Shown: positions 22,646 to 57,298 of the stretch, in pieces
Numbering within the stretch: position 1 is the stretch's first letter
Layout: each line of letters begins with the position of its first letter
Sequence record: OM386663.1
Direction: 5' to 3' (one strand)
From: Escherichia phage vB_EcoM_ESCO49
Length of the DNA stretch: 64,000 bases
Position numbers and translations under genes: made by a program
The notes under the pieces: generated by a model
What the model was told of the DNA's origin: nothing
Seen by the model: only the letters and a program-made list of their open reading frames with translations
The model's database searches: none

Positions 22646-23158
22646 TTAGTCCTTAAAGATATTCATCACTGAATCTTTTAATGCTTCCAATTGCTCCAGT
22701 ACTTCAGATTCTGCGCCTGAATTGCTCACTTCCTCTTTTAGTCTATCCTCTAAATCAACGCCGTCACTATAACACCAATCAAAAGCATAACCAAGATAAA
22801 AACTTTCTAAAACCGTTTTGCCGTTTACATCTACAACTTTCGCGGCAAGGATGTATTCTGAAGCCTCTAAATCTCTTTCTAGTTCTTCCTGTAAGCTGAC
22901 ATAAGCCTCTTTTGATGGATTTTCCCGGCCCTGTTTTGCATAGTCACTTGAAAGCTGTTTAAGGCTATAATTTAAAGGGATTGCATATTTAAAGGCATTA
23001 TGACGATAGTTGGGGTTTTTAATAGTCACGCCGCCTTGATGGTCGTCTGTAAACTCCCAATCAGCAAGATTATGGCTTGACTCGTAGCAGTTTACCGCTT
23101 CATAGATGATTGAAAATTTTTCTTTTACAACTTCAAAAGTAGCGTCTACAGTTTTCAT
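22646..23158 (-). CDS. hypothetical protein (array gene 10)
   Basis: 170-aa ORF starting at the conserved leader. Confidence 0.5.
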   Translation of the reverse strand: MKTVDATFEVVKEKFSIIYEAVNCYESSHNLADWEFTDDHQGGVTIKNPNYRHNAFKYAIPLNYSLKQLSSDYAKQGRENPSKEAYVSLQEELERDLEASEYILAAKVVDVNGKTVLESFYLGYAFDWCYSDGVDLEDRLKEEVSNSGAESEVLEQLEALKDSVMNIFKD

Positions 23159-24434: not shown

Positions 24435-25220
24435 TTAGTTCTTTGCGTCTAAGAAGGTTACTTCCGGTGAAGAGAAGACCGTCTCAATATCCTCATCAGT
24501 TCTTGCATAGATGTATGTATCTGCATCACTGCCAAATGTTACAGCTATCCTGTGATTGCTCTTCGACAGGTGGGTAACTAGAGCGTTACTTAGAGACATC
24601 TTTTCAACCGGAGGGTTACTTTGATGTATCTTACCTTTTCTTCGTCTGAAGAGGGTAACTGTATTGTCCGTGAACACAACTACACCTGCAAAGTATTCTG
24701 GTTCACAGTAGTTTTTCCAACCTGAGTGTAACTCGTTGTACATCTCTGTCTCGTAGACATACAGATAAACATCTACGCTCTTCATAACCTGATTGATGAT
24801 AACTGTGACAGCTTGAGGGTCCAGCCCACCGATACCTGCACCAATCATAGGTAGGCCAACCTTCTTCAACTGGTTAACTTCACAGTATCTGTTAAGTTGC
24901 TTCAAAGATGACTCTAAAGCACTGTATCGGGCGTCTTTACCAGTCTTAAGCTGAGTGTAAAGGTTAGCTATACGACCTTGTTTTAAACGTGCTACAGAGA
25001 AGTTACCCAGTAAATTTTCACAGGGTTTGTGGCCTATACCACCTGCATAGATGTAAACTTCTGTATCGGTCTCATATGCTTTTGGGTAAAGTTTAGAAAT
25101 CTTGTCAGCGATACCTGCACCCATTAAATTCATACAGTTGCAACCGTGACCAATGATGTCAAACTTACCTTTATCAAAGGCGTCAAAGATATCACCATTG
25201 ATGATTTTTACAATACCCAT
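24435..25220 (-). CDS. macro-domain protein (TARG1/DarG type, ADP-ribose binding or hydrolysing)
   Basis: 261 aa; N-terminal IINGDIFDAFDKGKFDIIGHGCNCMNLMGAGIADKISKLYP matches the NC..MGxGIA...YP pattern of TARG1/DarG-type macro domains (pattern recall, no alignment run). Confidence 0.5.
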   Translation of the reverse strand: MGIVKIINGDIFDAFDKGKFDIIGHGCNCMNLMGAGIADKISKLYPKAYETDTEVYIYAGGIGHKPCENLLGNFSVARLKQGRIANLYTQLKTGKDARYSALESSLKQLNRYCEVNQLKKVGLPMIGAGIGGLDPQAVTVIINQVMKSVDVYLYVYETEMYNELHSGWKNYCEPEYFAGVVVFTDNTVTLFRRRKGKIHQSNPPVEKMSLSNALVTHLSKSNHRIAVTFGSDADTYIYARTDEDIETVFSSPEVTFLDAKN

Positions 25221-32667: not shown

Positions 32668-32683
32668 AGTCTTCTCCAGAAAT

Positions 32684-32710
32684 TAAAAAGGCTCCCGTAG
32701 GAGCCTCTTA
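32684..32710 (-). terminator. rho-independent terminator downstream of the NAMPT-like gene
   Basis: Hairpin AGGCTCC-CGTA-GGAGCCT; U-run follows on the minus strand (plus AAAAA 32684-32688). Confidence 0.5.
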
Positions 32711-32720
32711 TCATATACTT

Positions 32721-34502
32721 TTAAAGCTGCTTGTCAATAATATTTCGAATATCACCAAGAGTTGTGTAACCGAACTGCTCAGAGTCGCTAAAGACTAAAC
32801 GTAAAGCACAAGCTGGGTGGTCAAGTACGTCTGCAAAACTCTGGAATCCATAGCCATCTACAGCTTTCAGCTTATCACCATCCCACATAGGTGCTACACC
32901 ACCAAAGGCAGACTTCTTAACACCACTATCTGTTTTAGGGTCTTTTGCAAGCATAATCTCTTTACCACCAATGCTTGCAAGAGTTGCTTTGACAGCAAAT
33001 GCAAAGGTGTCACGAGTCATGTACTGGTAAGTGTAAGAGCCTACACCAAATACTACGTTAGAGCTTGCAAAACCCATTTCATACAGACGATTCAGGATTT
33101 CGTTTGCACGTTCCAGCGTGATAGAGTCACCATAGATAAGGCCGATGTGCTCATCCAGTACCTTAAACCCTTTAGAGTTAATAGTTCCCCCAAAGATGTT
33201 GTACAGTGTCTTAATAGCTCCATCAATTTCAGCTACAGGACGTGTTACAACATTTGCAGAACCAACCATATAAGCATTCTTCAACATCACCGTATCAGCA
33301 ACTTCAAAGTCTTCTCTGTCAACAACCATTTCGTAGCCTTCTGACAGTAGCCATCCAGCAATACCATAGTCGATGTTTTCAAGCTTCATGTTCAGAACAG
33401 CATTCAACATTGTGTCGCTGGCTTCCAGCTTGCTTAGGTGCTCGTAATAAGCCTTCTTAGCACATTCTAAGTGGATTGCTTTATAACCTGTGACAATATG
33501 TACAGGGTCTCCAGAGTCAGGACGAATTACCAGTTTGCCATCACGTTCCATAATTTCTTTACGAAGTGCTGGTAAAATTTCTGACACAGCTCTCCAGAAG
33601 TTATAAGTGTCTGAAACAATACTTGCAATACCAGTTGGGTAAGTTTCTGTTAAGAAACGACGGAAGGTTTGCAACTCACCTTTAAATCGTCTTTCTTCTT
33701 CAACCAACTCGTTACCACCTTCCCAAGCAATGTTTGCACACATTACAGAGTGTTCAGTGGCTGGTACAGAGCTTCCAATATCAGAGATTGGATAGGTCTG
33801 CCCATAGATACGTTTAGCCGTGTATACAGCAGGGAAGCTATCAGTCCCTTTAAAGCTGGTTAAGTGGCCTACAGCATTGAATGCGTCATCAGTAAAGCCT
33901 GACATACCACGCATAGCAAAGTCATGGCACTGATAAGGTAAATGCAAGTCATTGTCGCAAGTAAGGTCAGCCCACTTCTTACAGATACGTTTGTAGTGTA
34001 ATGCAATAGTAGCAATGGTGCAAGCTTTCCAAATCTCAGCAGAGAAAGCATCCTCCAGATACCCTGCTACCCAATGGAAACCTGAAACAGTGTTCTGGAA
34101 GACAATCATTGGGACACGCATCGGGACAACTGTGCCTTCTTCTACAGCGTATACTTCAACCGGTAGATAACCTAAGTCGTGAAGTGCTTCCCAATGCTCT
34201 CGACCGATAGCATCTTTACCCAGAACACCATTCATGACTTCTAAGATTTCGTCAACTGCTTCTTTTTTATCACGTTCAAAGAAAGTGGCGTTCCAGTGGT
34301 CTATTAAGTAATCTTTAACAAAACGTTGAATACCAAAAGCCACTACACCATCAATTGCTAAGGGGCTGTTAAACCATTTATCACTACGTGGTGTCAGGTT
34401 GAACATCAAGTATTCTGTTGCACTAGGGTACTGGTAAACATGACCAGATTTGTAAGCATCTGCGTTTAAACCTGCTGGTACTGCATAAAGTGATTTAGTC
34501 AT
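32721..34502 (-). CDS. nicotinamide phosphoribosyltransferase-family protein (NadV or Namat-like)
   Basis: 593 aa; NAMPT-like N-terminus (DAYKSGHVYQYP) and full NAMPT length; directly downstream of a Prs-like gene. Confidence 0.7.
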   Translation of the reverse strand: MTKSLYAVPAGLNADAYKSGHVYQYPSATEYLMFNLTPRSDKWFNSPLAIDGVVAFGIQRFVKDYLIDHWNATFFERDKKEAVDEILEVMNGVLGKDAIGREHWEALHDLGYLPVEVYAVEEGTVVPMRVPMIVFQNTVSGFHWVAGYLEDAFSAEIWKACTIATIALHYKRICKKWADLTCDNDLHLPYQCHDFAMRGMSGFTDDAFNAVGHLTSFKGTDSFPAVYTAKRIYGQTYPISDIGSSVPATEHSVMCANIAWEGGNELVEEERRFKGELQTFRRFLTETYPTGIASIVSDTYNFWRAVSEILPALRKEIMERDGKLVIRPDSGDPVHIVTGYKAIHLECAKKAYYEHLSKLEASDTMLNAVLNMKLENIDYGIAGWLLSEGYEMVVDREDFEVADTVMLKNAYMVGSANVVTRPVAEIDGAIKTLYNIFGGTINSKGFKVLDEHIGLIYGDSITLERANEILNRLYEMGFASSNVVFGVGSYTYQYMTRDTFAFAVKATLASIGGKEIMLAKDPKTDSGVKKSAFGGVAPMWDGDKLKAVDGYGFQSFADVLDHPACALRLVFSDSEQFGYTTLGDIRNIIDKQL

Positions 34503-34547
34503 CTTTTAATCTCTCTCAAAATGGGGTTTTTAAGCCCCTATAAAGTT

Positions 34548-35453
34548 TTAATCAAGGTTTGCTACAGTAACTTGACCATAATGTGTTAAGCCACGGTCTT
34601 TAGCTTCCCCTAAAGAGTTTGTAGTGTAGATATGGTCAATGCCATTGTCAAGAAGGTTTTCAACATCTTTAGAGAAGATACCATGTGTTACATAAAGTTC
34701 CACACGTTTTGCACCTGCTTCACGAAGATGTTTCGCTGCTTCTATGAAGGTTCGACCACCATCACAAATATCATCAAGAATCATGACAGTTTTATCTGTC
34801 AAATCAACATCATCAAGGATTCGCATACCAGTTATTTCACCAGTCTTAAGGTTGCGTACTTTAGACATTGTGATATATGGTTTATCCACCTCTTTAGCAG
34901 TCTCTGCAATCTTCTTAGAAGCACCTGCATCTGGGGCTACTAAGTAATCAATCAGAGGGTCATTTGCATAGTGGACTGCAATCTCCTTTTGAGGAATACT
35001 TTGGAAGCAGTTGAAAAGGTTATCTGGAACGTAACTATGAGGGTCAACTGCACAGACTGCATCAAAACCCATTGCATTAACCTGTTGTGCAAACACTTTC
35101 AAAGCTGCTGCATCACCTTTAAACATGTGACGGTCGTAACGTGCATTTGGCAAATAGTAAAAGATAGCAGTCTTCATAGCAAACTTATGAGGTACTAAAT
35201 CATCAATTGCTTCTTTAGCAAGTGCCACAGCAAACAATGTGTCCTTGTCATAGCCTTTTACAATAATAACCACATTGTTGATGGATGATGCTGCATAAGC
35301 AGTAAAATCAACAAGCTCTTGTGAAAAGTGTCCACCAATCTCACCAGAAGGGAACTGGATGATGTTAAACTCTTCTTCATGAGACCCTTTTGTCGGTGAA
35401 TGAATTATAACACGAATCGATGTCTTCATAGTTTTCCCTCTCTTTATTCCCAA
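34548..35453 (-). CDS. ribose-phosphate pyrophosphokinase (Prs)-family protein (possible ADP-ribose pyrophosphokinase, Adps-like)
   Basis: 301 aa; phosphoribosyltransferase binding loop VMILDDICDGGRTF; Prs-like two-domain length. Confidence 0.65.
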   Translation of the reverse strand: MGIKRGKTMKTSIRVIIHSPTKGSHEEEFNIIQFPSGEIGGHFSQELVDFTAYAASSINNVVIIVKGYDKDTLFAVALAKEAIDDLVPHKFAMKTAIFYYLPNARYDRHMFKGDAAALKVFAQQVNAMGFDAVCAVDPHSYVPDNLFNCFQSIPQKEIAVHYANDPLIDYLVAPDAGASKKIAETAKEVDKPYITMSKVRNLKTGEITGMRILDDVDLTDKTVMILDDICDGGRTFIEAAKHLREAGAKRVELYVTHGIFSKDVENLLDNGIDHIYTTNSLGEAKDRGLTHYGQVTVANLD

Positions 35454-35851
35454 ATAACCTTTCTACGCTTTATCTGGATAATGTTCTTTTTACAATATTC
35501 GATAGCTTCATCTATTGACCCAAAACTTTCCTTCTCCACAAAGAAGCGAACTTCACCATCTTGTATCTTTTGTTCTTCGGCTGTTGGCTCTTCAAGTATT
35601 TTACTTGATACTTCTCTGTTAATCTGCATTACATACTCGAAAGAGTTCTTCTTGTACCCAACTATTTTAATGTAACCCCTCTGGCGAAGACGATTGAACC
35701 GAGTTGACTTGTTTGTCTTGGATACATCTGGAAATTCCTTGTCATGGATACTACGTATCTGTGAGCAAGTAAATGTTTTATCATAACCAAACTCATTATA
35801 CAGGACTTTTAACAGTTCAATCATAACATCACTCCCAAATAACTTTTGCAT
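35444..35851 (-). CDS. paralogue A2 of a four-gene winged-helix-like family
   Basis: Track ORF 35444..35896 trimmed to MQKLFGSDVMIELLKVLYNEFGYDKTF, matching paralogue 36315..36737; shared C-terminal motif EAIEYCKKNIIQIKRRKVIWE. Confidence 0.5.
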   Translation of the reverse strand: MQKLFGSDVMIELLKVLYNEFGYDKTFTCSQIRSIHDKEFPDVSKTNKSTRFNRLRQRGYIKIVGYKKNSFEYVMQINREVSSKILEEPTAEEQKIQDGEVRFFVEKESFGSIDEAIEYCKKNIIQIKRRKVIWE

Positions 35852-36293
35852 GTTTAACTTTAATAAGATGCTCTTTGCAGTGCTCAATAGCTTCATCTAG
35901 TGTTTTAAACATAACATCCGCGATAAAGTATCTTACGTCAGGTTGTACATCAACATCTTTAACCTCAGATAAGTTTGATTTTTGTGAACTCCCCAACTCT
36001 TCACGCGTGTTATTTAGCATCCTTGACAGTTGTATGTGCTTCTCCATAAAGGCTCGATTTAATTGATTAATACTTAGTCTACCTTTGCTTTTTACCTGCC
36101 CTACAGTCAGCAGTACACCAGACTGTCTTAACATTGTTAGATACCCACGGGTATTACTGATTGACTGGCCTCGTATAAAAAGGCTATTCTCTCTTAATGC
36201 GTCAATTGCTTCGTTAGAGTCAAAAGTGTTTTCTGTCCCGAAGGTTTTGTATAAAATCTCTATTACGTGCTTCTGTAAATTGCAAAAAATCAT
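35829..36293 (-). CDS. paralogue B2 of the same family
   Basis: MIFCNLQKHVIEILYKTFGTENTFDSNEAIDAL... matches 36715..37167; C-terminus EAIEHCKEHLIKVKHAKVIWE. Confidence 0.5.
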   Translation of the reverse strand: MIFCNLQKHVIEILYKTFGTENTFDSNEAIDALRENSLFIRGQSISNTRGYLTMLRQSGVLLTVGQVKSKGRLSINQLNRAFMEKHIQLSRMLNNTREELGSSQKSNLSEVKDVDVQPDVRYFIADVMFKTLDEAIEHCKEHLIKVKHAKVIWE

Positions 36294-36314
36294 AGTGTAT
36301 TCCTAATCAAATGT

Positions 36315-36737
36315 TTAAACTTCTTCCCAAACAATACGCTTTCTTTTTGTTTGGATAACCGTTCTCTTACAATGCTCAACTGCTGCCTCCATACTGGTAA
36401 AGTGTATGTCACCTATGAAGTATCCTACTTCACCTACACTAACCTCTTCATCCTTTTGTTGATGGCCATTACAATTTAGAAGCACATTTTTAGCTTTGCT
36501 TTCATTGATTCTCATAAGATACTCATTATTAAATCCTGTCGCTCCAACAACACTAATGTACCCACTTTTACGTAATCTGTGAGACCAATTAGCTTTATCC
36601 CTGATTGAAGCATGTGGTAGATATTTATTAAAAACCTTAGTTAGTTGTGAGCCAGAAAATGTTTTATCATAGCCAAAATTTATATACAGAACCTTCAGAA
36701 GCTCAAACATGTTATTACTCCCAAATAATTTTTGCAC
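36315..36737 (-). CDS. paralogue A1
   Basis: MQKLFGSNNMFELLKVLYINFGYDKTF...; C-terminus EAAVEHCKRTVIQTKRKRIVWEEV. Confidence 0.5.
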   Translation of the reverse strand: MQKLFGSNNMFELLKVLYINFGYDKTFSGSQLTKVFNKYLPHASIRDKANWSHRLRKSGYISVVGATGFNNEYLMRINESKAKNVLLNCNGHQQKDEEVSVGEVGYFIGDIHFTSMEAAVEHCKRTVIQTKRKRIVWEEV

Positions 36738-37167
36738 GTTTTACTTTGATAATATACTTTTTGCAGTGTTCAACAGCATCTTGGAGTGTATCAAACATCA
36801 ACTCACCAATAAAGAATTTTATGTCTGGAGACACACCTACACCACTTAAGTCTTTTTGCTGCTCTTCACGTTGGTTTCGTGGCTCTTTAAGTAAATAGTC
36901 TAGCTGAATGTGCTTCTCAATAAAACCTCTATTTAATTGGTTGATGAGCATCCTCCCTTGTTGCTTAATCTGTCCTACCACGATGAGCACACCCCACTTT
37001 CTCATCTGAGTCAAGTAGTACCTGATGTTTGCTATTGGCTGTTTTTTGATGTAATCACTTCCTTCTTGTAGGGCTTCAATAGCTTCATTTGAGTCAAATG
37101 TGTTATCTGTCCCAAACTTATTGTATAGAATCTCAATAATTCTTTTTTGGAAGCTGCAAAAAATCAT
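36715..37167 (-). CDS. paralogue B1
   Basis: MIFCSFQKRIIEILYNKFGTDNTFDSNEAIEAL...; C-terminus DAVEHCKKYIIKVKRAKIIWE. Confidence 0.5.
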   Translation of the reverse strand: MIFCSFQKRIIEILYNKFGTDNTFDSNEAIEALQEGSDYIKKQPIANIRYYLTQMRKWGVLIVVGQIKQQGRMLINQLNRGFIEKHIQLDYLLKEPRNQREEQQKDLSGVGVSPDIKFFIGELMFDTLQDAVEHCKKYIIKVKRAKIIWE

Positions 37168-37176
37168 AATTTTCTC

Positions 37177-37455
37177 TCAATCAAAAGTTACGTTTGTTAC
37201 TGCCATTGCAGATTTGCATTTTACAGGGTCTACAACGTGATAAAGTACACTACAGTTACCTGTGCTGTCTGGTACAGGCTTTACCCATTGCTGCTTTATA
37301 GTTGGTTCTCCTAAGTCTTTGTAAGAGCCGTCTGTAAAATTGTTTACCATCTCAAGTGCAATTGGTTCTGGGACATGACCACGTATCATGTACATTTCAC
37401 AACCATTACCACCATCGCTGACTAGTGGTAAAATCTCCCACTTTTCTTTAGCCAT
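37177..37455 (-). CDS. hypothetical protein
   Basis: 92-aa ORF. Confidence 0.4.
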   Translation of the reverse strand: MAKEKWEILPLVSDGGNGCEMYMIRGHVPEPIALEMVNNFTDGSYKDLGEPTIKQQWVKPVPDSTGNCSVLYHVVDPVKCKSAMAVTNVTFD

Positions 37456-37963
37456 TGTAAGTCGCCCTATAAACTGTCTCGAACTTCAACAGGAGAGATA
37501 TTGCCAAATCTGTATAGTTGTTGTCAAGCACATCTGGCATATTATTTTTGATATATTTCTCTTGCTCTTCATAGGTCATCTTAGGAGTGCTTAGAAGGTT
37601 ATCTCCTTGCTTCTGGTTATCAAGTTTAGTCTGGATAAACCAGTTTGCACAGTGATGCTCACCACCCTTTGTAACAGGTTTGTGGTGGCCTAATGTGAAG
37701 GATTGACTACCTGTGTATCTGCAAAGTTTATTGAGTACTGTAATGGTGTTCTTCACAACAAAACATTCATACAGGTTGTCTATGGTGTAGTGTGGGTAGT
37801 AGCGGAATAGTGCTCTTTCACGAGTGCTATCACGATTCCAGAGAATCATGTGATTAGAGTTTGAAGGGTCATATTGGTGGGAGTCAATGAACTCTTGGCG
37901 TTCCTCAAAGCTGAGTCTTAACACTGACATTGCAGCAGAACGTTTCAGGTTTGACAGGTACAT
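37448..37963 (-). CDS. putative HNH-type endonuclease
   Basis: 171 aa; GHHKPVTKGGEHHCANWFIQTKLDNQKQG resembles an HNH core (His-His ... Asn ... His). Weak call. Confidence 0.35.
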   Translation of the reverse strand: MYLSNLKRSAAMSVLRLSFEERQEFIDSHQYDPSNSNHMILWNRDSTRERALFRYYPHYTIDNLYECFVVKNTITVLNKLCRYTGSQSFTLGHHKPVTKGGEHHCANWFIQTKLDNQKQGDNLLSTPKMTYEEQEKYIKNNMPDVLDNNYTDLAISLLLKFETVYRATYNG

Positions 37964-38014
37964 ATTATCTCCAAAATAAAAAGGGAACCTTTACAGTTCC
38001 CTTATAGTATTTGT

Positions 38015-47204: not shown

Positions 47205-47702
47205 TCAAGCACAATTTGCTTTCATTACCTTGTGGATTCTTTTTTCAGCATCTTCATAAGTTTCTTTAGTAATAAACTTAATTGCTGCAATATTGGCATT
47301 GTAGAAGAGTCTGAGCTTCGAGTCAATCCTTTTTGTCATTACATCGAATTTATGTTGAAGGTTTGCTTCACCATAGACTAGGCCACCTTTTGTGTAGTAG
47401 GTCTGAATAATGTAAAAGTCAAAAAATTCTTTCCCAAAGCTCTCAATATCTTTTTTAATATACTCAGAAGAGGTTTCGTAAGTCATCCAATCGCTTTCCT
47501 TAGTGACTATCTTCTTCCGAGTCTTACCAGCAACTTTTCTTTTGGTCACGCTATTAAACTGTTTCCTTCCTATATAATATTGTCCAGTCTTCTTACAGTG
47601 TACTAAATAGACAAAGCCAAAATGTTTAGTGGGGTCAACTTCCCCACATAAAGATACCCAATGACCATAGGTGGGGCAATTGCCAAATCCTTTAATCTTC
47701 AT
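47205..47702 (-). CDS. GIY-YIG domain nuclease
   Basis: 165 aa; GFVYLVHCKKTGQYYIGRK matches the GIY-(x10)-YIG core. Confidence 0.55.
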   Translation of the reverse strand: MKIKGFGNCPTYGHWVSLCGEVDPTKHFGFVYLVHCKKTGQYYIGRKQFNSVTKRKVAGKTRKKIVTKESDWMTYETSSEYIKKDIESFGKEFFDFYIIQTYYTKGGLVYGEANLQHKFDVMTKRIDSKLRLFYNANIAAIKFITKETYEDAEKRIHKVMKANCA

Positions 47703-54598: not shown

Positions 54599-57298
54599 AT
54601 GGAAAACGTAGATTTTAAAAACTTACATTTAGTTGGCGATACAGAAACTGATGGTTTGCTCCTTGAGTTCACTAAAGTGCACGTAATGGCTTTCGCAGAC
54701 TATAAATCTGACGATGAAGAGCCACCTGTATGGGTCTTTACAGATGAGCCTATCCTCGGTCACAAGTACACTAAGTACATCAAGGGTGGTTTGCGTGAAG
54801 GTGTTGAGTTTGCGTTAAAGGCAAAACGTCTTTGCATCCATAACGGTCTAGGTTATGACTGGTGGGTTTTCAATCACATTGCACCGGATTTATGGAACTT
54901 TGATAATCCAAAGTGTAAGCCGTGGAGTAATTTCTTTCAGGATTCTCTTATCCAGTCCCGTGTTCAGTGGATGGATAGACCAACTCCAAAGGGTTATAAA
55001 GGTGCTCATGGCTTGGCTGCATGGGGTGCTCGTGTTGGTGTTCGTAAACCAGAGATTGAGCATTGGGGTGTGTGGAATGCAGAAATCTTCACTCGTGTTG
55101 TAGAAGATATCCGTATTAACGCCAAAACTAAACGGGCACTTGATAATGAATATCTCAAGCTTAAGAAGTGTGGCATAGACACTTATGAAACCTACATGCG
55201 AGCTAAAGAAACATCTTTCTGGATGAGTCAACAAGCTATCAATGGTTGGAAAGCTGATAAAGAGCTTATGGAGTTCCATGTGAAGGAACTTGACAAGTTG
55301 ACTAATGAGCTTGCTTCAGAGGTTGAACCACATCTACCTCCAACTATTAAGACTAAAGGTAAAGTCACTGGAGAAGAGTTTGCAAAAGCTTGGAATGAGT
55401 ATGTTGAAACATTTGGTCATGCAGATGGACTGAAAAGAATTACCAAGTACCCTAAGACAAAGTATCGTCAGCAGGTACGTAACGGTGAGATGCAAACATA
55501 CGAAATCAAACCATTTGGTAAGCCAACTACAAAGATTTTTAACATTGAAAAGAGAAATTGCTATACACCAACCAACTCTGTAACTGGTGAAGAGTACAAG
55601 GAAGGTTTTGTAGCAATGAAGGATGCTCGTGCAATTTGCAATGAGTTGAATGCAAAGATTGGTAAGAAGTGCAAAGACTGGAAGCCAGTAAAAACAGTCA
55701 AAACTGTGAAGTATTATAACAGCCACGTTGTTAACCACTTTGAACTTGAGTCAAGTCGCTACACAGGTTTGATTGATGCACCATATACACCAATTGAGTT
55801 TGAAGTTTCTCGTATGACTCAGGTAGCAGTTGTTAAAGACTACTTGAAATCAGTTGGTTGGATTCCAGATGACTGGAACTACAAGAAAGACTCAGACGGT
55901 CGCCCTGTCAAAGTTTGTCGTTTCAAAGACAATAAAAAGATGATTACAAAACATCCTAAGTGGCAGGAGATGGTTGAACGGTGTGGTTTGAGTTATGTTG
56001 AACATGAAGGTGTACAGTACATTGAGCATAACTGGTCTGTGAAGAAATACACAGATTTGCTTGAACCTTGCTTAATCCGTACTTCACCAAAACTTACTGA
56101 ATCATCTTATGACACGATTGAAGGTGAGCTTGGACAGAAGATTGCGAAATACTACACTTTGATGCACAGACGCAGAACTATTGAGAACTCAAAGGATGAT
56201 GAAAAAGGTTGGTTAAACCAGATTCGTCCCGATGGTCGCCTTAGTGCTGGTGCAATGGTGTTTGGTACTTCAACTGGACGTATGACACAATATGGTATTG
56301 TAAACGTACCATCTGGTGCTGCTGTCTATGGAGCACCTATGAGGGAGGTTTGGATTTGTGAGGAAGGGACTAATGTTGTCTCTGTTGATATGAACTCAGC
56401 CCAGCTAGTTCTTCTTTGTAACTTTATGGGTGATAAAGAGTTCACTAAAGCGGTAACGCAAGGTAAAGAAGAGATTGAGTTCATTCGTCAAGAAGATGGA
56501 CGCTATTACTGTAAACATTTTGATGAGTACCTCAATCCAGAGATTGATAAGTACCTTCGCTATGACTCTGAGAATGACCTGTACGTTGTCTATTCAGGGA
56601 CTGATGCACATACACTGAACAGTATCTACTTTAGCTTGAACGATGAGCAGGACATCTTGACTTGTCGAGCTACTCAGGATGAGAACCTTCTTCATGAGAT
56701 TAGCAAAGGTCGTAAGAAAGCTAAGAATGGTATCTATGCACTGCTGTTCGGTGCAGGTGACGAGAAGTTTGCTAAGACGATTAAAGCTGCAACTACTCAG
56801 GAAGGTGCGCTAACTAAACAGACTTACTTTATTCGTTTGCCTAAAATTAAGAAGCTGTTAGATGACTTGGAAGCTGACTACAAAGCAACTAAAAAGGCAC
56901 TTGAAGAGGTATTTGGTAAGACTGCTGCAATTTCTAAAGGGGGTTTTGTAAAGGTTGCTGGAGCTTGGTTGTGGTGTAAATCTCCACATAAGTTATTGAA
57001 TTATTTGCTCATGGGTTCGGAAAGTCAGATTCAGAACGAGGCAATTAACCTTGCTTGTAGAAGAGCATGTGAAGAAGGATTGACAAAATTAAATGGACGA
57101 AAACCAGCAATCGGTGCTAGGCTTTTGCTGGCATACCACGATGAAAACAGTTGGGAATGCCCAGAAAGTATGACTCAAGAAGTTAAAGCCATAACTGACT
57201 GGATGTATGGTCAGGCATCTAAGAATTTAGGTTTGAAGAGTGAGACGCTTGTAACTGGCACAGGTAAGGTTGGTAAGAGCTGGTATGAGGTACACTAA
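54599..57298 (+). CDS. DNA polymerase, family A, with 3'-5' exonuclease domain
   Basis: Track ORF trimmed to the ATG after an AGGGAG RBS; Exo I motif GDTETDGL; polymerase motifs A (VSVDMNSAQL), B (RKKAKNGIYALLFGAG) and C (YHDENSWE). Confidence 0.85.
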   Translation: MENVDFKNLHLVGDTETDGLLLEFTKVHVMAFADYKSDDEEPPVWVFTDEPILGHKYTKYIKGGLREGVEFALKAKRLCIHNGLGYDWWVFNHIAPDLWNFDNPKCKPWSNFFQDSLIQSRVQWMDRPTPKGYKGAHGLAAWGARVGVRKPEIEHWGVWNAEIFTRVVEDIRINAKTKRALDNEYLKLKKCGIDTYETYMRAKETSFWMSQQAINGWKADKELMEFHVKELDKLTNELASEVEPHLPPTIKTKGKVTGEEFAKAWNEYVETFGHADGLKRITKYPKTKYRQQVRNGEMQTYEIKPFGKPTTKIFNIEKRNCYTPTNSVTGEEYKEGFVAMKDARAICNELNAKIGKKCKDWKPVKTVKTVKYYNSHVVNHFELESSRYTGLIDAPYTPIEFEVSRMTQVAVVKDYLKSVGWIPDDWNYKKDSDGRPVKVCRFKDNKKMITKHPKWQEMVERCGLSYVEHEGVQYIEHNWSVKKYTDLLEPCLIRTSPKLTESSYDTIEGELGQKIAKYYTLMHRRRTIENSKDDEKGWLNQIRPDGRLSAGAMVFGTSTGRMTQYGIVNVPSGAAVYGAPMREVWICEEGTNVVSVDMNSAQLVLLCNFMGDKEFTKAVTQGKEEIEFIRQEDGRYYCKHFDEYLNPEIDKYLRYDSENDLYVVYSGTDAHTLNSIYFSLNDEQDILTCRATQDENLLHEISKGRKKAKNGIYALLFGAGDEKFAKTIKAATTQEGALTKQTYFIRLPKIKKLLDDLEADYKATKKALEEVFGKTAAISKGGFVKVAGAWLWCKSPHKLLNYLLMGSESQIQNEAINLACRRACEEGLTKLNGRKPAIGARLLLAYHDENSWECPESMTQEVKAITDWMYGQASKNLGLKSETLVTGTGKVGKSWYEVH

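What the first reader, a model, noticed from the sequence alone, without database searches (positions are those of the whole stretch)
32721..35453. Prs-like plus NAMPT-like gene pair without an NMNAT: NARP1-type NAD+ reconstitution candidate
A Prs-family gene (34548-35453, PRTase loop VMILDDICDGGRTF) sits immediately upstream of a NAMPT-family gene (32721-34502), co-oriented and ending at a terminator. No NMN adenylyltransferase is visible in the window. In the NARP1 pathway a Prs homologue pyrophosphorylates ADP-ribose and a NAMPT homologue condenses the product with nicotinamide to rebuild NAD+, countering NAD-depleting defences. I cannot tell Adps/Namat from canonical Prs/NadV by eye.
Basis: partly seen in the sequence, partly recalled or inferred. 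Interest (0 to 1): 0.8.

Follow-up and report, generated by a model that had tools for sequence, protein, structure and literature searches.

The report
Known phage NAD+ rebuilding operon (NARP1)

Summary
Both genes exist as described. The only correction is that adps most likely starts at ATG 35429 (293 aa), not at TTG 35453. The window is a Felixounavirus, collinear with phage Bas63 (JohannRWettstein), the phage in which NARP1 was discovered by deleting genes 79-80.

- **Namat:** 98% identical to Bas63 gp80. It carries the published Namat signature (GSYTYQYMTRD; clamp-loop Lys42-Trp43) and every catalytic-core residue. It scores 432 bits against the solved SpβL1 Namat, versus 141-181 bits against canonical NAMPTs.
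- **Adps:** 79% identical to Bas63 gp79 and 292/293 identical to the phage ESCO50 protein that the discovery paper's own supplementary table lists as a Namat-associated Adps. It scores higher against characterised Adps enzymes than against E. coli Prs, and the catalytic lysine is kept.
- **NMNAT:** no NMN adenylyltransferase was found in the window or in the complete Bas63 genome.

Verdict: NARP1, already known, low interest.

One loose end. A Macro-domain gene 7.5 kb downstream (24435-25220) is a homologue of Adpp, the accessory ADPR-1''-phosphatase that lets NARP1 beat aRES defence. Felixounaviruses were not counted as carrying it, because the published search covered only two genes on each side of the operon.

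The parts
34548..35429 (-). adps: ADP-ribose pyrophosphokinase (Prs-family), 293 aa. Catalytic Lys190 in TMSKVRN; PRTase loop VMILDDICDGGRTF at aa 215-228.
   Evidence: ORF. Start refined. Pfam and NCBIfam. 79% identity to Bas63 gp79. 292/293 identical to ESCO50 Adps, which the discovery paper's table lists as Namat-associated. 121 and 99.8 bits to Gary and SpβL1 Adps versus 65.5 bits to E. coli Prs, with the catalytic Lys aligned to SpβL1 K162.
32721..34502 (-). namat: nicotinamide ADP-ribose transferase (NAMPT-family), 593 aa. Clamp helix GSYTYQYMTRD at aa 488-498; clamp loop K42-W43; catalytic His251, Arg327, Asp221.
   Evidence: ORF. 583/593 identical to Bas63 gp80. 432 bits to SpβL1 Namat (9w5w/9w5x) versus 181 bits to 7yqo and about 141 bits to human NAMPT, with residue mapping from the same alignment. 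Motif definition from PMC12774641. KVP40 canonical Nampt has GMGGGLLQQLDRD at this position.
34503..34547 (-). 45-nt adps-namat spacer holding the namat ribosome-binding site. Several relatives carry an HNH homing-endonuclease gene at this point.
   Evidence: Sequence. ESCO50 annotation shows the HNH gene between the two genes. Two-piece alignments with an HNH feature occur in several relatives.
32686..32709 (-). Intrinsic-terminator-like hairpin (AAGAGGCTCC-tacg-GGAGCCTTTT plus T-run) closing the operon.
   Evidence: The scan as a whole found 4 terminator-like sites against 4.0 expected, so position, not the count, is the argument.
24435..25220 (-). Candidate accessory gene; not shown to belong to the pathway. 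It encodes a 261-aa protein with a Poa1p/Adpp-type Macro domain (aa 3-159) and an unassigned beta-rich C-terminal domain. It is the homologue of Bas63_0095 'putative phosphatase'.

Best explanation
The pair is the NARP1 operon of a Felixounavirus. When a host defence (SIR2-HerA/Nezha, type I Thoeris, DSR1/2, SEFIR and similar) cleaves NAD+ into ADP-ribose and nicotinamide, two steps follow.

1. Adps (34548-35429) transfers pyrophosphate from ATP to the 1'' position of ADP-ribose, giving ADPR-pyrophosphate.
2. Namat (32721-34502) displaces that pyrophosphate with nicotinamide and regenerates NAD+ directly. No NMN intermediate, NMN adenylyltransferase or host salvage enzyme is needed.

What is shown here: orthology, motif and residue conservation, gene order, and absence of an NMNAT. 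What is taken from the literature: the chemistry (shown in vitro for the SpβL1, Gary, DyoEdafos and P. foliorum homologues) and the in vivo phenotype and ADPR-PP metabolite (shown for Bas63). What is inferred: that the window's own proteins do the same.
For: - **Genome context:** the window is collinear with Bas63 (23,077 to 87,100, then 1 to 2,303), and the pair occupies the position of Bas63 genes 79-80.
- **Identity to the type case:** Namat is 98% and Adps 79% identical to the Bas63 proteins. Deleting those genes sensitised Bas63 to SIR2-HerA. The wild type still escaped in a ΔpncC ΔnadR host and produced ADPR-PP.
- **Already catalogued:** the window's Adps is 292/293 identical to ESCO50 Adps, which the discovery paper lists as Namat-associated.
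- **Namat signature:** GSX-phi-X-phi-X-phi-TRD is met as GSYTYQYMTRD, and the clamp loop is the Bas63-type Lys-aromatic pair K42-W43.
- **Catalytic-core equivalents:** D15, Y17, F195, R198, D221, A248, H251, R327, D329, G458, D459, G488, S489, T496, R497 and D498 are all conserved.
- **Score ranking:** Namat gives 432 bits to SpβL1 Namat versus 181 and 141 bits to canonical NAMPTs, and 28% identity to KVP40 Nampt. Adps gives 121 and 99.8 bits to Gary and SpβL1 Adps versus 65.5 bits to E. coli Prs.
- **Not a canonical Prs:** all Prs equivalog models fall about 190 bits or more below their cut-offs.
- **Catalytic lysine:** K190 aligns with SpβL1 K162.
- **No NMNAT:**
Against: - No biochemistry exists for this exact protein pair. 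The Bas63 Adps itself did not purify, so its activity is inferred from the SpβL1 homologue and from metabolites in infected cells.
- The N-terminal 180 aa of the window's Adps is only 69% identical to Bas63.
- No Adps structure is solved, so the determinants of ADPR versus ribose-5-phosphate choice are undefined and could not be checked residue by residue.
- Two ligand-contact positions differ from SpβL1 Namat (A196 for S190, S460 for A362). Both substitutions are identical in Bas63.
- Namat retains PRPP-dependent NMN synthesis in vitro, so the pathway need not be exclusive.
Confidence: 0.93

Rival explanations
1. Canonical salvage booster. The Prs-like enzyme makes PRPP from ribose-5-phosphate, the NAMPT-like enzyme makes NMN, and host NadR/PncC-NadD complete NAD+ synthesis. 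This is what the database annotations imply.
For: All public records annotate the genes as ribose-phosphate pyrophosphokinase and nicotinamide phosphoribosyltransferase. The NCBIfam NadV-type equivalog NF006629 passes its cut-off (468.6 versus 405) and TIGR01251 passes narrowly (124.6 versus 113). [quoted passage not shown]
Against: Bas63 carrying the orthologous genes still overcame defence in a ΔpncC ΔnadR host. The SpβL1 homologue gave no product in the canonical Prs assay but converted ADP-ribose plus ATP to ADPR-PP, and Namat prefers ADPR-PP when both substrates are offered. The adenine-binding clamp that is absent from Nampts is present. Every Prs equivalog model fails by about 190 bits or more.
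Confidence: 0.03
2. Dual use. The pair runs NARP1 when a defence releases ADP-ribose, and Namat also draws on host PRPP to make NMN at other times, giving a general NAD+ boost during infection.
For: Wild-type and clamp-mutant Namat keep PRPP-dependent NMN synthesis in vitro. The catalytic core is fully conserved in the window protein.
Against: ADPR-PP and its breakdown product appeared only when the defence was present, and NARP1, unlike NARP2, is not reported to raise NAD+ without depletion. NMN would still need a host adenylyltransferase, because the phage has none.
Confidence: 0.1
3. The downstream Macro-domain protein (24435-25220) has nothing to do with NARP1. It removes ADP-ribose from protein or DNA (a TARG1/DarG-like activity, for example against DarT) or serves RNA-repair metabolism.
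Confidence: 0.55

Closest known systems
NARP1 of Escherichia phage Bas63 / JohannRWettstein, genes 79-80 (Osterman et al., bioRxiv 10.1101/2024.02.11.579819)
   Same: Same genus, same genomic position, same gene order and orientation. Namat is 98% and Adps 79% identical, with the identical clamp loop and clamp helix. Neither phage encodes an NMNAT.
   Different: The Adps N-terminal 180 aa is only 69% identical. Four winged-helix paralogs are inserted directly upstream of adps in the window. Bas63 gene 81, downstream of namat, is absent from the window.
NARP1 of Bacillus phage SpβL1 (biochemically and structurally characterised; PDB 9w5w/9w5x; PMC12774641)
   Same: Same two-enzyme pathway. Namat is 44% identical with all catalytic and clamp-helix residues equivalent. 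Adps is 35% identical with the catalytic Lys conserved.
   Different: The window Namat is about 100 aa longer, with roughly 77 aa inserted at aa 343-427 and roughly 15 aa near aa 259-273. The clamp loop uses Lys-Trp instead of a stacking Arg.
NARP1-AP of Vibrio phage Gary (Adps-Adpp-Namat; bioRxiv 10.64898/2026.01.28.702374)
   Same: Adps is 34% and Namat 40% identical. The window phage also encodes an Adpp-family Macro protein (27% identity, E 2e-13).
   Different: In Gary the Macro gene sits inside the operon. Here it lies 7.5 kb downstream, carries an extra C-terminal domain of about 100 aa, and has Pro in place of the Trp of the GGDW motif.
NARP2 of Vibrio phage KVP40 (Nampt NadV plus Nmnat NatV)
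   Same: It uses a NAMPT-family enzyme to restore NAD+ during infection.
   Different: The KVP40 Nampt is only 28% identical, lacks the adenine clamp (GMGGGLLQQLDRD) and prefers PRPP. NARP2 needs an Nmnat, which is absent here, and has no Prs-like partner.

Membership tests
NARP1 (Adps + Namat) | A Prs-family protein that falls with Adps rather than with canonical PRPP synthetases | tested here: met
   79% identity to Bas63 Adps. 292/293 identical to the ESCO50 protein listed in the discovery paper's Adps table. 121 and 99.8 bits to Gary and SpβL1 Adps versus 65.5 bits to E. coli Prs. All NCBIfam Prs equivalog models fail; only the broad TIGR01251 passes. No formal tree was built.
NARP1 (Adps + Namat) | The Adps catalytic lysine (SpβL1 K162, equivalent to B. 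subtilis Prs K197) | tested here: met
   K190 in TMSKVRN aligns with SpβL1 GHK162QRN and E. coli DKRR. The mutant phenotype is described.
NARP1 (Adps + Namat) | A Namat homologue within 10 genes of adps | tested here: met
   The genes are adjacent, 45 nt apart and on the same strand.
NARP1 (Adps + Namat) | Namat clamp-helix signature GSX-phi-X-phi-X-phi-TRD, with aromatic residues at motif positions 3 and 7 | tested here: met
   G488-S-Y490-T-Y-Q-Y494-M-T-R-D498. Canonical KVP40 Nampt reads GMGGGLLQQLDRD.
NARP1 (Adps + Namat) | Namat clamp loop supplying an adenine-stacking residue (Arg at position 3, or Lys/Tyr followed by a stacking residue) | tested here: met
   S40-D41-K42-W43, identical to Bas63 and matching the 'Lys then fourth residue stacks' type described.
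NARP1 (Adps + Namat) | [quoted passage not shown] | tested here: met
   F195, R198, D221, H251, R327 and D329 (mapped onto the residues named).
NARP1 (Adps + Namat) | Enzymatic conversion of ADPR plus ATP to ADPR-PP, then plus nicotinamide to NAD+ | not testable with these tools
   Shown in vitro only for the SpβL1, Gary, DyoEdafos and P. foliorum homologues, and as metabolites in Bas63 infection.
NARP1 (Adps + Namat) | Rescue of the phage from NAD+-depleting defence | not testable with these tools
   Shown for the Bas63 Δ79-80 mutant against SIR2-HerA.
NARP2 (Nampt + Nmnat) | An NMN adenylyltransferase encoded in the same genome | tested here: not met
   No CTP_transf_like or Nudix domain in the Pfam sweep. 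No NatV homologue in the window or in the complete Bas63 genome. The 21 kb outside the window corresponds to the Bas63 structural module.
Canonical PRPP synthetase (Prs) | Reaches the curated score of a Prs equivalog model | tested here: not met
   Best equivalog NF002095 scores 107 against a cut-off of 296. The others score 43-66 against cut-offs of 438-536.
NARP1-AP (NARP1 with associated phosphatase Adpp) | A Macro-domain gene within two genes of the NARP1 operon | tested here: not met
   The neighbours within two genes have no Macro domain. The only Macro gene is 7.5 kb away.
NARP1-AP (NARP1 with associated phosphatase Adpp) | An Adpp-family (Poa1p-like) Macro protein encoded by the phage | tested here: inconclusive
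   Homology is clear (E 2e-13 and 4e-19) and the invariant columns are kept. However, the motif Trp is Pro, there is an extra domain, the family also occurs in T4-like phages that to my knowledge lack NARP1, and the activity is untested.

The most novel reading that the evidence does not exclude
Felixounaviruses may run a split version of the extended NARP1-AP pathway. The Adpp-family Macro protein at 24435-25220 (Bas63_0095 homologue), encoded 7.5 kb from the operon and therefore missed by the published search of two genes on each side, would dephosphorylate the ADPR-1''-phosphate made by aRES (RES-domain) defence to ADP-ribose. That would feed Adps/Namat and make this large phage genus resistant to aRES as well as to SIR2- and TIR-type NAD+ depletion. 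The same logic would apply to any NARP1 phage carrying this widespread Macro family elsewhere in its genome.
Probability: 0.25. Interest if true: 0.45.

Novelty: already known. Interest (0 to 1): 0.15.

Why it matters
The operon explains how this phage, and FelixO1-like phages used in typing and therapy, can escape NAD+-depleting defences such as SIR2-HerA, Thoeris I and DSR. That was established in 2024 for a phage of the same genus, so nothing here changes the field.

Two practical points follow. First, public records still annotate both genes as ordinary PRPP synthetase and NAMPT, which is functionally misleading. Second, the distal Adpp-like Macro gene suggests that counting only operon-embedded phosphatases may underestimate how many NARP1 phages can also beat aRES. 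A short experiment could test this.

Tried and rejected
- **Canonical Prs/NadV reading:** rejected on the clamp motif, the score ranking and the published ΔpncC ΔnadR result.
- **NARP2:** rejected because no Nmnat is encoded.
- **Four paralogous ORFs upstream of adps (35444-37167) as a NARP1 accessory enzyme:** the family has only 15 clusters in 5.8 billion proteins, with no Pfam match and no name. The AF2 model (pLDDT 78.5) shows an N-terminal winged helix with only weak MarR-like matches (best E 3.8e-3, TM about 0.4). Nothing links them to ADPR or NAD chemistry, so they are left as an unexplained neighbour.
- **Promoter scan:** uninformative, with 18 sites found against 17.5 expected, so the 5' limit of the transcription unit is not established.
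- **TARG1/DarG-type mechanism for the Macro protein:** judged unlikely because the catalytic dyad positions are Gln and Gly (alignment plus my own knowledge of the TARG1 residues).
- **Residue-level test of ADPR versus ribose-5-phosphate specificity in Adps:** not possible, because no Adps structure or defined specificity residues exist.
- **Locating the Bas63 record:** guessing accessions cost.
Full report
**Observation**

The two ORFs are real. ORF 32721-34502 (-) encodes 593 aa. ORF 34548-35453 (-) encodes 301 aa from a TTG start. They are co-oriented, 45 nt apart, and the PRTase loop VMILDDICDGGRTF is present.

Pfam assigns NAPRTase plus NAMPT_N to the first ORF and Pribosyltran plus Pribosyl_synth to the second. 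NCBIfam gives NF006629 at E 2e-140 and TIGR01251 at E 4e-36.

A terminator-like hairpin (10-bp stem, T-run) lies at 32709-32686 (-), immediately after the Namat stop codon.

One correction is needed. The TTG at 35453 overlaps the upstream gene, whose stop is at 35444. ATG 35429 has an AAGAGAGGGA Shine-Dalgarno sequence, aligns with residue 1 of the Bas63 orthologue, and is the start annotated in the nearest relative, ESCO50. The gene is therefore 34548-35429, 293 aa.

**What the window is**

Megablast finds about 260 Felixounavirus (FelixO1-like) records. The best is Escherichia phage vB_EcoM_ESCO50, at 98% identity over this locus.

The window is collinear, on the opposite strand, with Bas63/JohannRWettstein (MZ501086) from position 23,077 to 87,100 and on to 2,303. 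Only the structural module lies outside it.

**Link to the literature**

NARP1 was discovered in Bas63.

- Deleting its genes 79-80 sensitised the phage to SIR2-HerA.
- The wild type still escaped in a ΔpncC ΔnadR host.
- ADPR-pyrophosphate appeared only in defended cells infected by the wild type.
- The SpβL1 homologues converted ADPR plus ATP to ADPR-PP, and then, with nicotinamide, to NAD+.

The window's pair sits at exactly the position of genes 79-80.

**Namat**

- The window protein is 583/593 identical to Bas63 gp80.
- Against solved structures it scores 432 bits to SpβL1 Namat (9w5w/9w5x). It scores 181 bits to 7yqo ('Pre-B cell enhancing factor related protein') and about 141 bits to human NAMPT.
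- It is 28% identical to the canonical KVP40 Nampt.
- The structural paper defines a Namat-specific 'selectivity clamp': a helix motif GSX-phi-X-phi-X-phi-TRD, whose aromatic residues stack on adenine, and a variable loop that supplies either an Arg or a Lys/Tyr followed by a stacking residue.
- The window protein has G488-S-Y-T-Y-Q-Y-M-T-R-D498 and S40-D-K42-W43, identical to Bas63. KVP40 Nampt reads GMGGGLLQQLDRD at the helix position.
- All catalytic-core equivalents are conserved: D15, Y17, F195, R198, D221, H251, R327, D329.
- Two contact positions differ from SpβL1 (A196 and S460). Both are identical in Bas63.
- Relative to SpβL1, the Felixounavirus enzyme carries an insertion of about 77 aa at aa 343-427. 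Phage Gary's Namat has a shorter one.

**Adps**

- The window protein is 79% identical to Bas63 gp79. The divergence is concentrated in the N-terminal 180 aa (69%), against 96% for the remainder. At nucleotide level, adps is 78% identical and namat 96%.
- It is 292/293 identical to ESCO50 Adps.
- The discovery paper's supplementary tables list that ESCO50 protein as an Adps with an associated Namat. They also list finno, FelixO1 and Bas63, and the corresponding Namats as 'Adps-associated'.
- It scores 121 bits against Gary Adps and 99.8 bits against SpβL1 Adps, both biochemically validated, versus 65.5 bits against E. coli Prs.
- Only the broad TIGR01251 model passes its cut-off. Every Prs equivalog model fails by about 190 bits or more.
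- The catalytic lysine is conserved: K190 aligns with SpβL1 K162.
- No Adps structure is in the PDB. Residues that discriminate ADPR from ribose-5-phosphate are therefore undefined and could not be tested.

**No NMNAT**

A Pfam sweep of 40 unassigned ORFs of 100 aa or more found no nucleotidyltransferase or Nudix domain. tblastn and phmmer --max with KVP40 NatV against all six frames of the window and of the whole Bas63 genome found nothing.

**Mechanism and verdict**

The pair is NARP1. Adps pyrophosphorylates ADP-ribose, and Namat condenses ADPR-PP with nicotinamide to give NAD+, independently of host salvage. My confidence is 0.93. The remaining uncertainty is that this exact allele pair has not been assayed.

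The canonical Prs/NadV reading is essentially excluded. A secondary PRPP-dependent NMN activity of Namat remains possible.

The system is already published for this phage genus and for these alleles, so novelty is nil.

**Things found around it**

1. **A distal Adpp-like Macro gene.** Window 24435-25220 (-), 261 aa, is the homologue of Bas63_0095 'putative phosphatase'.
   - It has a Macro domain (Pfam E 8.7e-8).
   - It is homologous to Adpp, the ADPR-1''-phosphatase that sits inside some NARP1 operons and lets them beat the aRES defence. Identity is 27% (E 2e-13) to the assayed Gary enzyme over its full length, and 34% (E 4e-19) to a Pseudomonas-phage Adpp.
   - All ten columns invariant among operon-encoded Adpps are kept. 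The Trp of the GGDW motif is Pro, and an extra C-terminal domain of about 100 aa is present.
   - The positions of the TARG1 catalytic dyad are Gln90 and Gly131. The mapping comes from the alignment; the dyad identity is my own knowledge.
   - A relative is named 'Poa1p_like' by NCBI.
   - The aRES preprint searched only two genes on each side of NARP1, and its table contains no Escherichia or Salmonella phage. Felixounaviruses were therefore not counted.
   - The family is widespread: 2,851 phage records, including T4-like phages, which to my knowledge lack NARP1; this was not tested here. A NARP1-independent role is at least as likely.
2. **Four paralogous ORFs (35444-37167).** They form a duplicated two-gene unit inserted between the gp78 homologue and adps. 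About 10 of 203 Felixounavirus records carry them. They are winged-helix proteins of a very narrow family with no evident link to NAD chemistry.
3. **HNH polymorphism.** ESCO50 and several other relatives carry an HNH homing-endonuclease gene exactly between adps and namat. The window does not.
4. **Missing gene.** Bas63 gene 81, downstream of namat, is absent from the window.

Noticed in passing
window 24435-25220 (-): A 261-aa protein with a Poa1p/Adpp-type Macro domain and an unassigned beta-rich C-terminal domain. It is a homologue of the NARP1-associated ADPR-1''-phosphatase Adpp (27-34% identity) but lies 7.5 kb from the operon. Felixounaviruses are absent from the published NARP1-AP table, which searched only two genes on each side.
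   Followed up: partly
window 35444-37167 (-): Four paralogous ORFs of 135-154 aa (phrog_29478) form a duplicated two-gene unit with 23-nt overlaps, inserted directly upstream of adps. About 10 of 203 Felixounavirus records have them and Bas63 does not. The family has only 15 clusters in 5.8 billion proteins. The model shows an N-terminal winged helix (weak MarR-like matches) and a small C-terminal domain ending in a conserved (I/V)(I/V)WE.
   Followed up: partly
[not shown]
   Followed up: partly
window 34548-35429 versus L007 7746-8627: adps is a mosaic relative to Bas63. The 5' 250 nt are about 61% identical, the middle 77-79%, and the 3' 380 nt about 90%, while the adjacent namat is 96% identical. 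Text fragments in the discovery paper's tables show FelixO1 carrying the Bas63-type N-terminus joined to a window-type middle section, which suggests recombination within the gene.
   Followed up: partly
window 32721-34502, aa ~343-427 and ~259-273: The Felixounavirus Namat is about 100 aa longer than the crystallised SpβL1 Namat because of two insertions. Vibrio phage Gary's Namat has a shorter insertion at the same site. The role of these insertions is unknown.
   Followed up: no
window ~32668-32720 versus Bas63 55508-55852: Bas63 gene 81 (114 aa, hypothetical), immediately downstream of namat, has no counterpart in the window.
   Followed up: no
GenBank GU169904 (Staphylococcus phage SA1), MG065668 (Campylobacter phage A126): Records attributed to Staphylococcus and Campylobacter phages contain Felixounavirus-type NARP1 and Macro genes at 87-96% identity. 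These look like chimeric or contaminated database records.
   Followed up: no
window 37448-37963 (-) and 37981-38003: A 171-aa ORF (phrog_3500) has a weak HNH-endonuclease PHROG match. It is preceded by a terminator-like hairpin that may mark the 5' limit of the transcription unit ending at the NARP1 terminator.
   Followed up: no
window 47205-47702 (-): A SegE-like GIY-YIG homing-endonuclease ORF (Pfam PF19835, E 2e-28) lies in the replication module.
   Followed up: no
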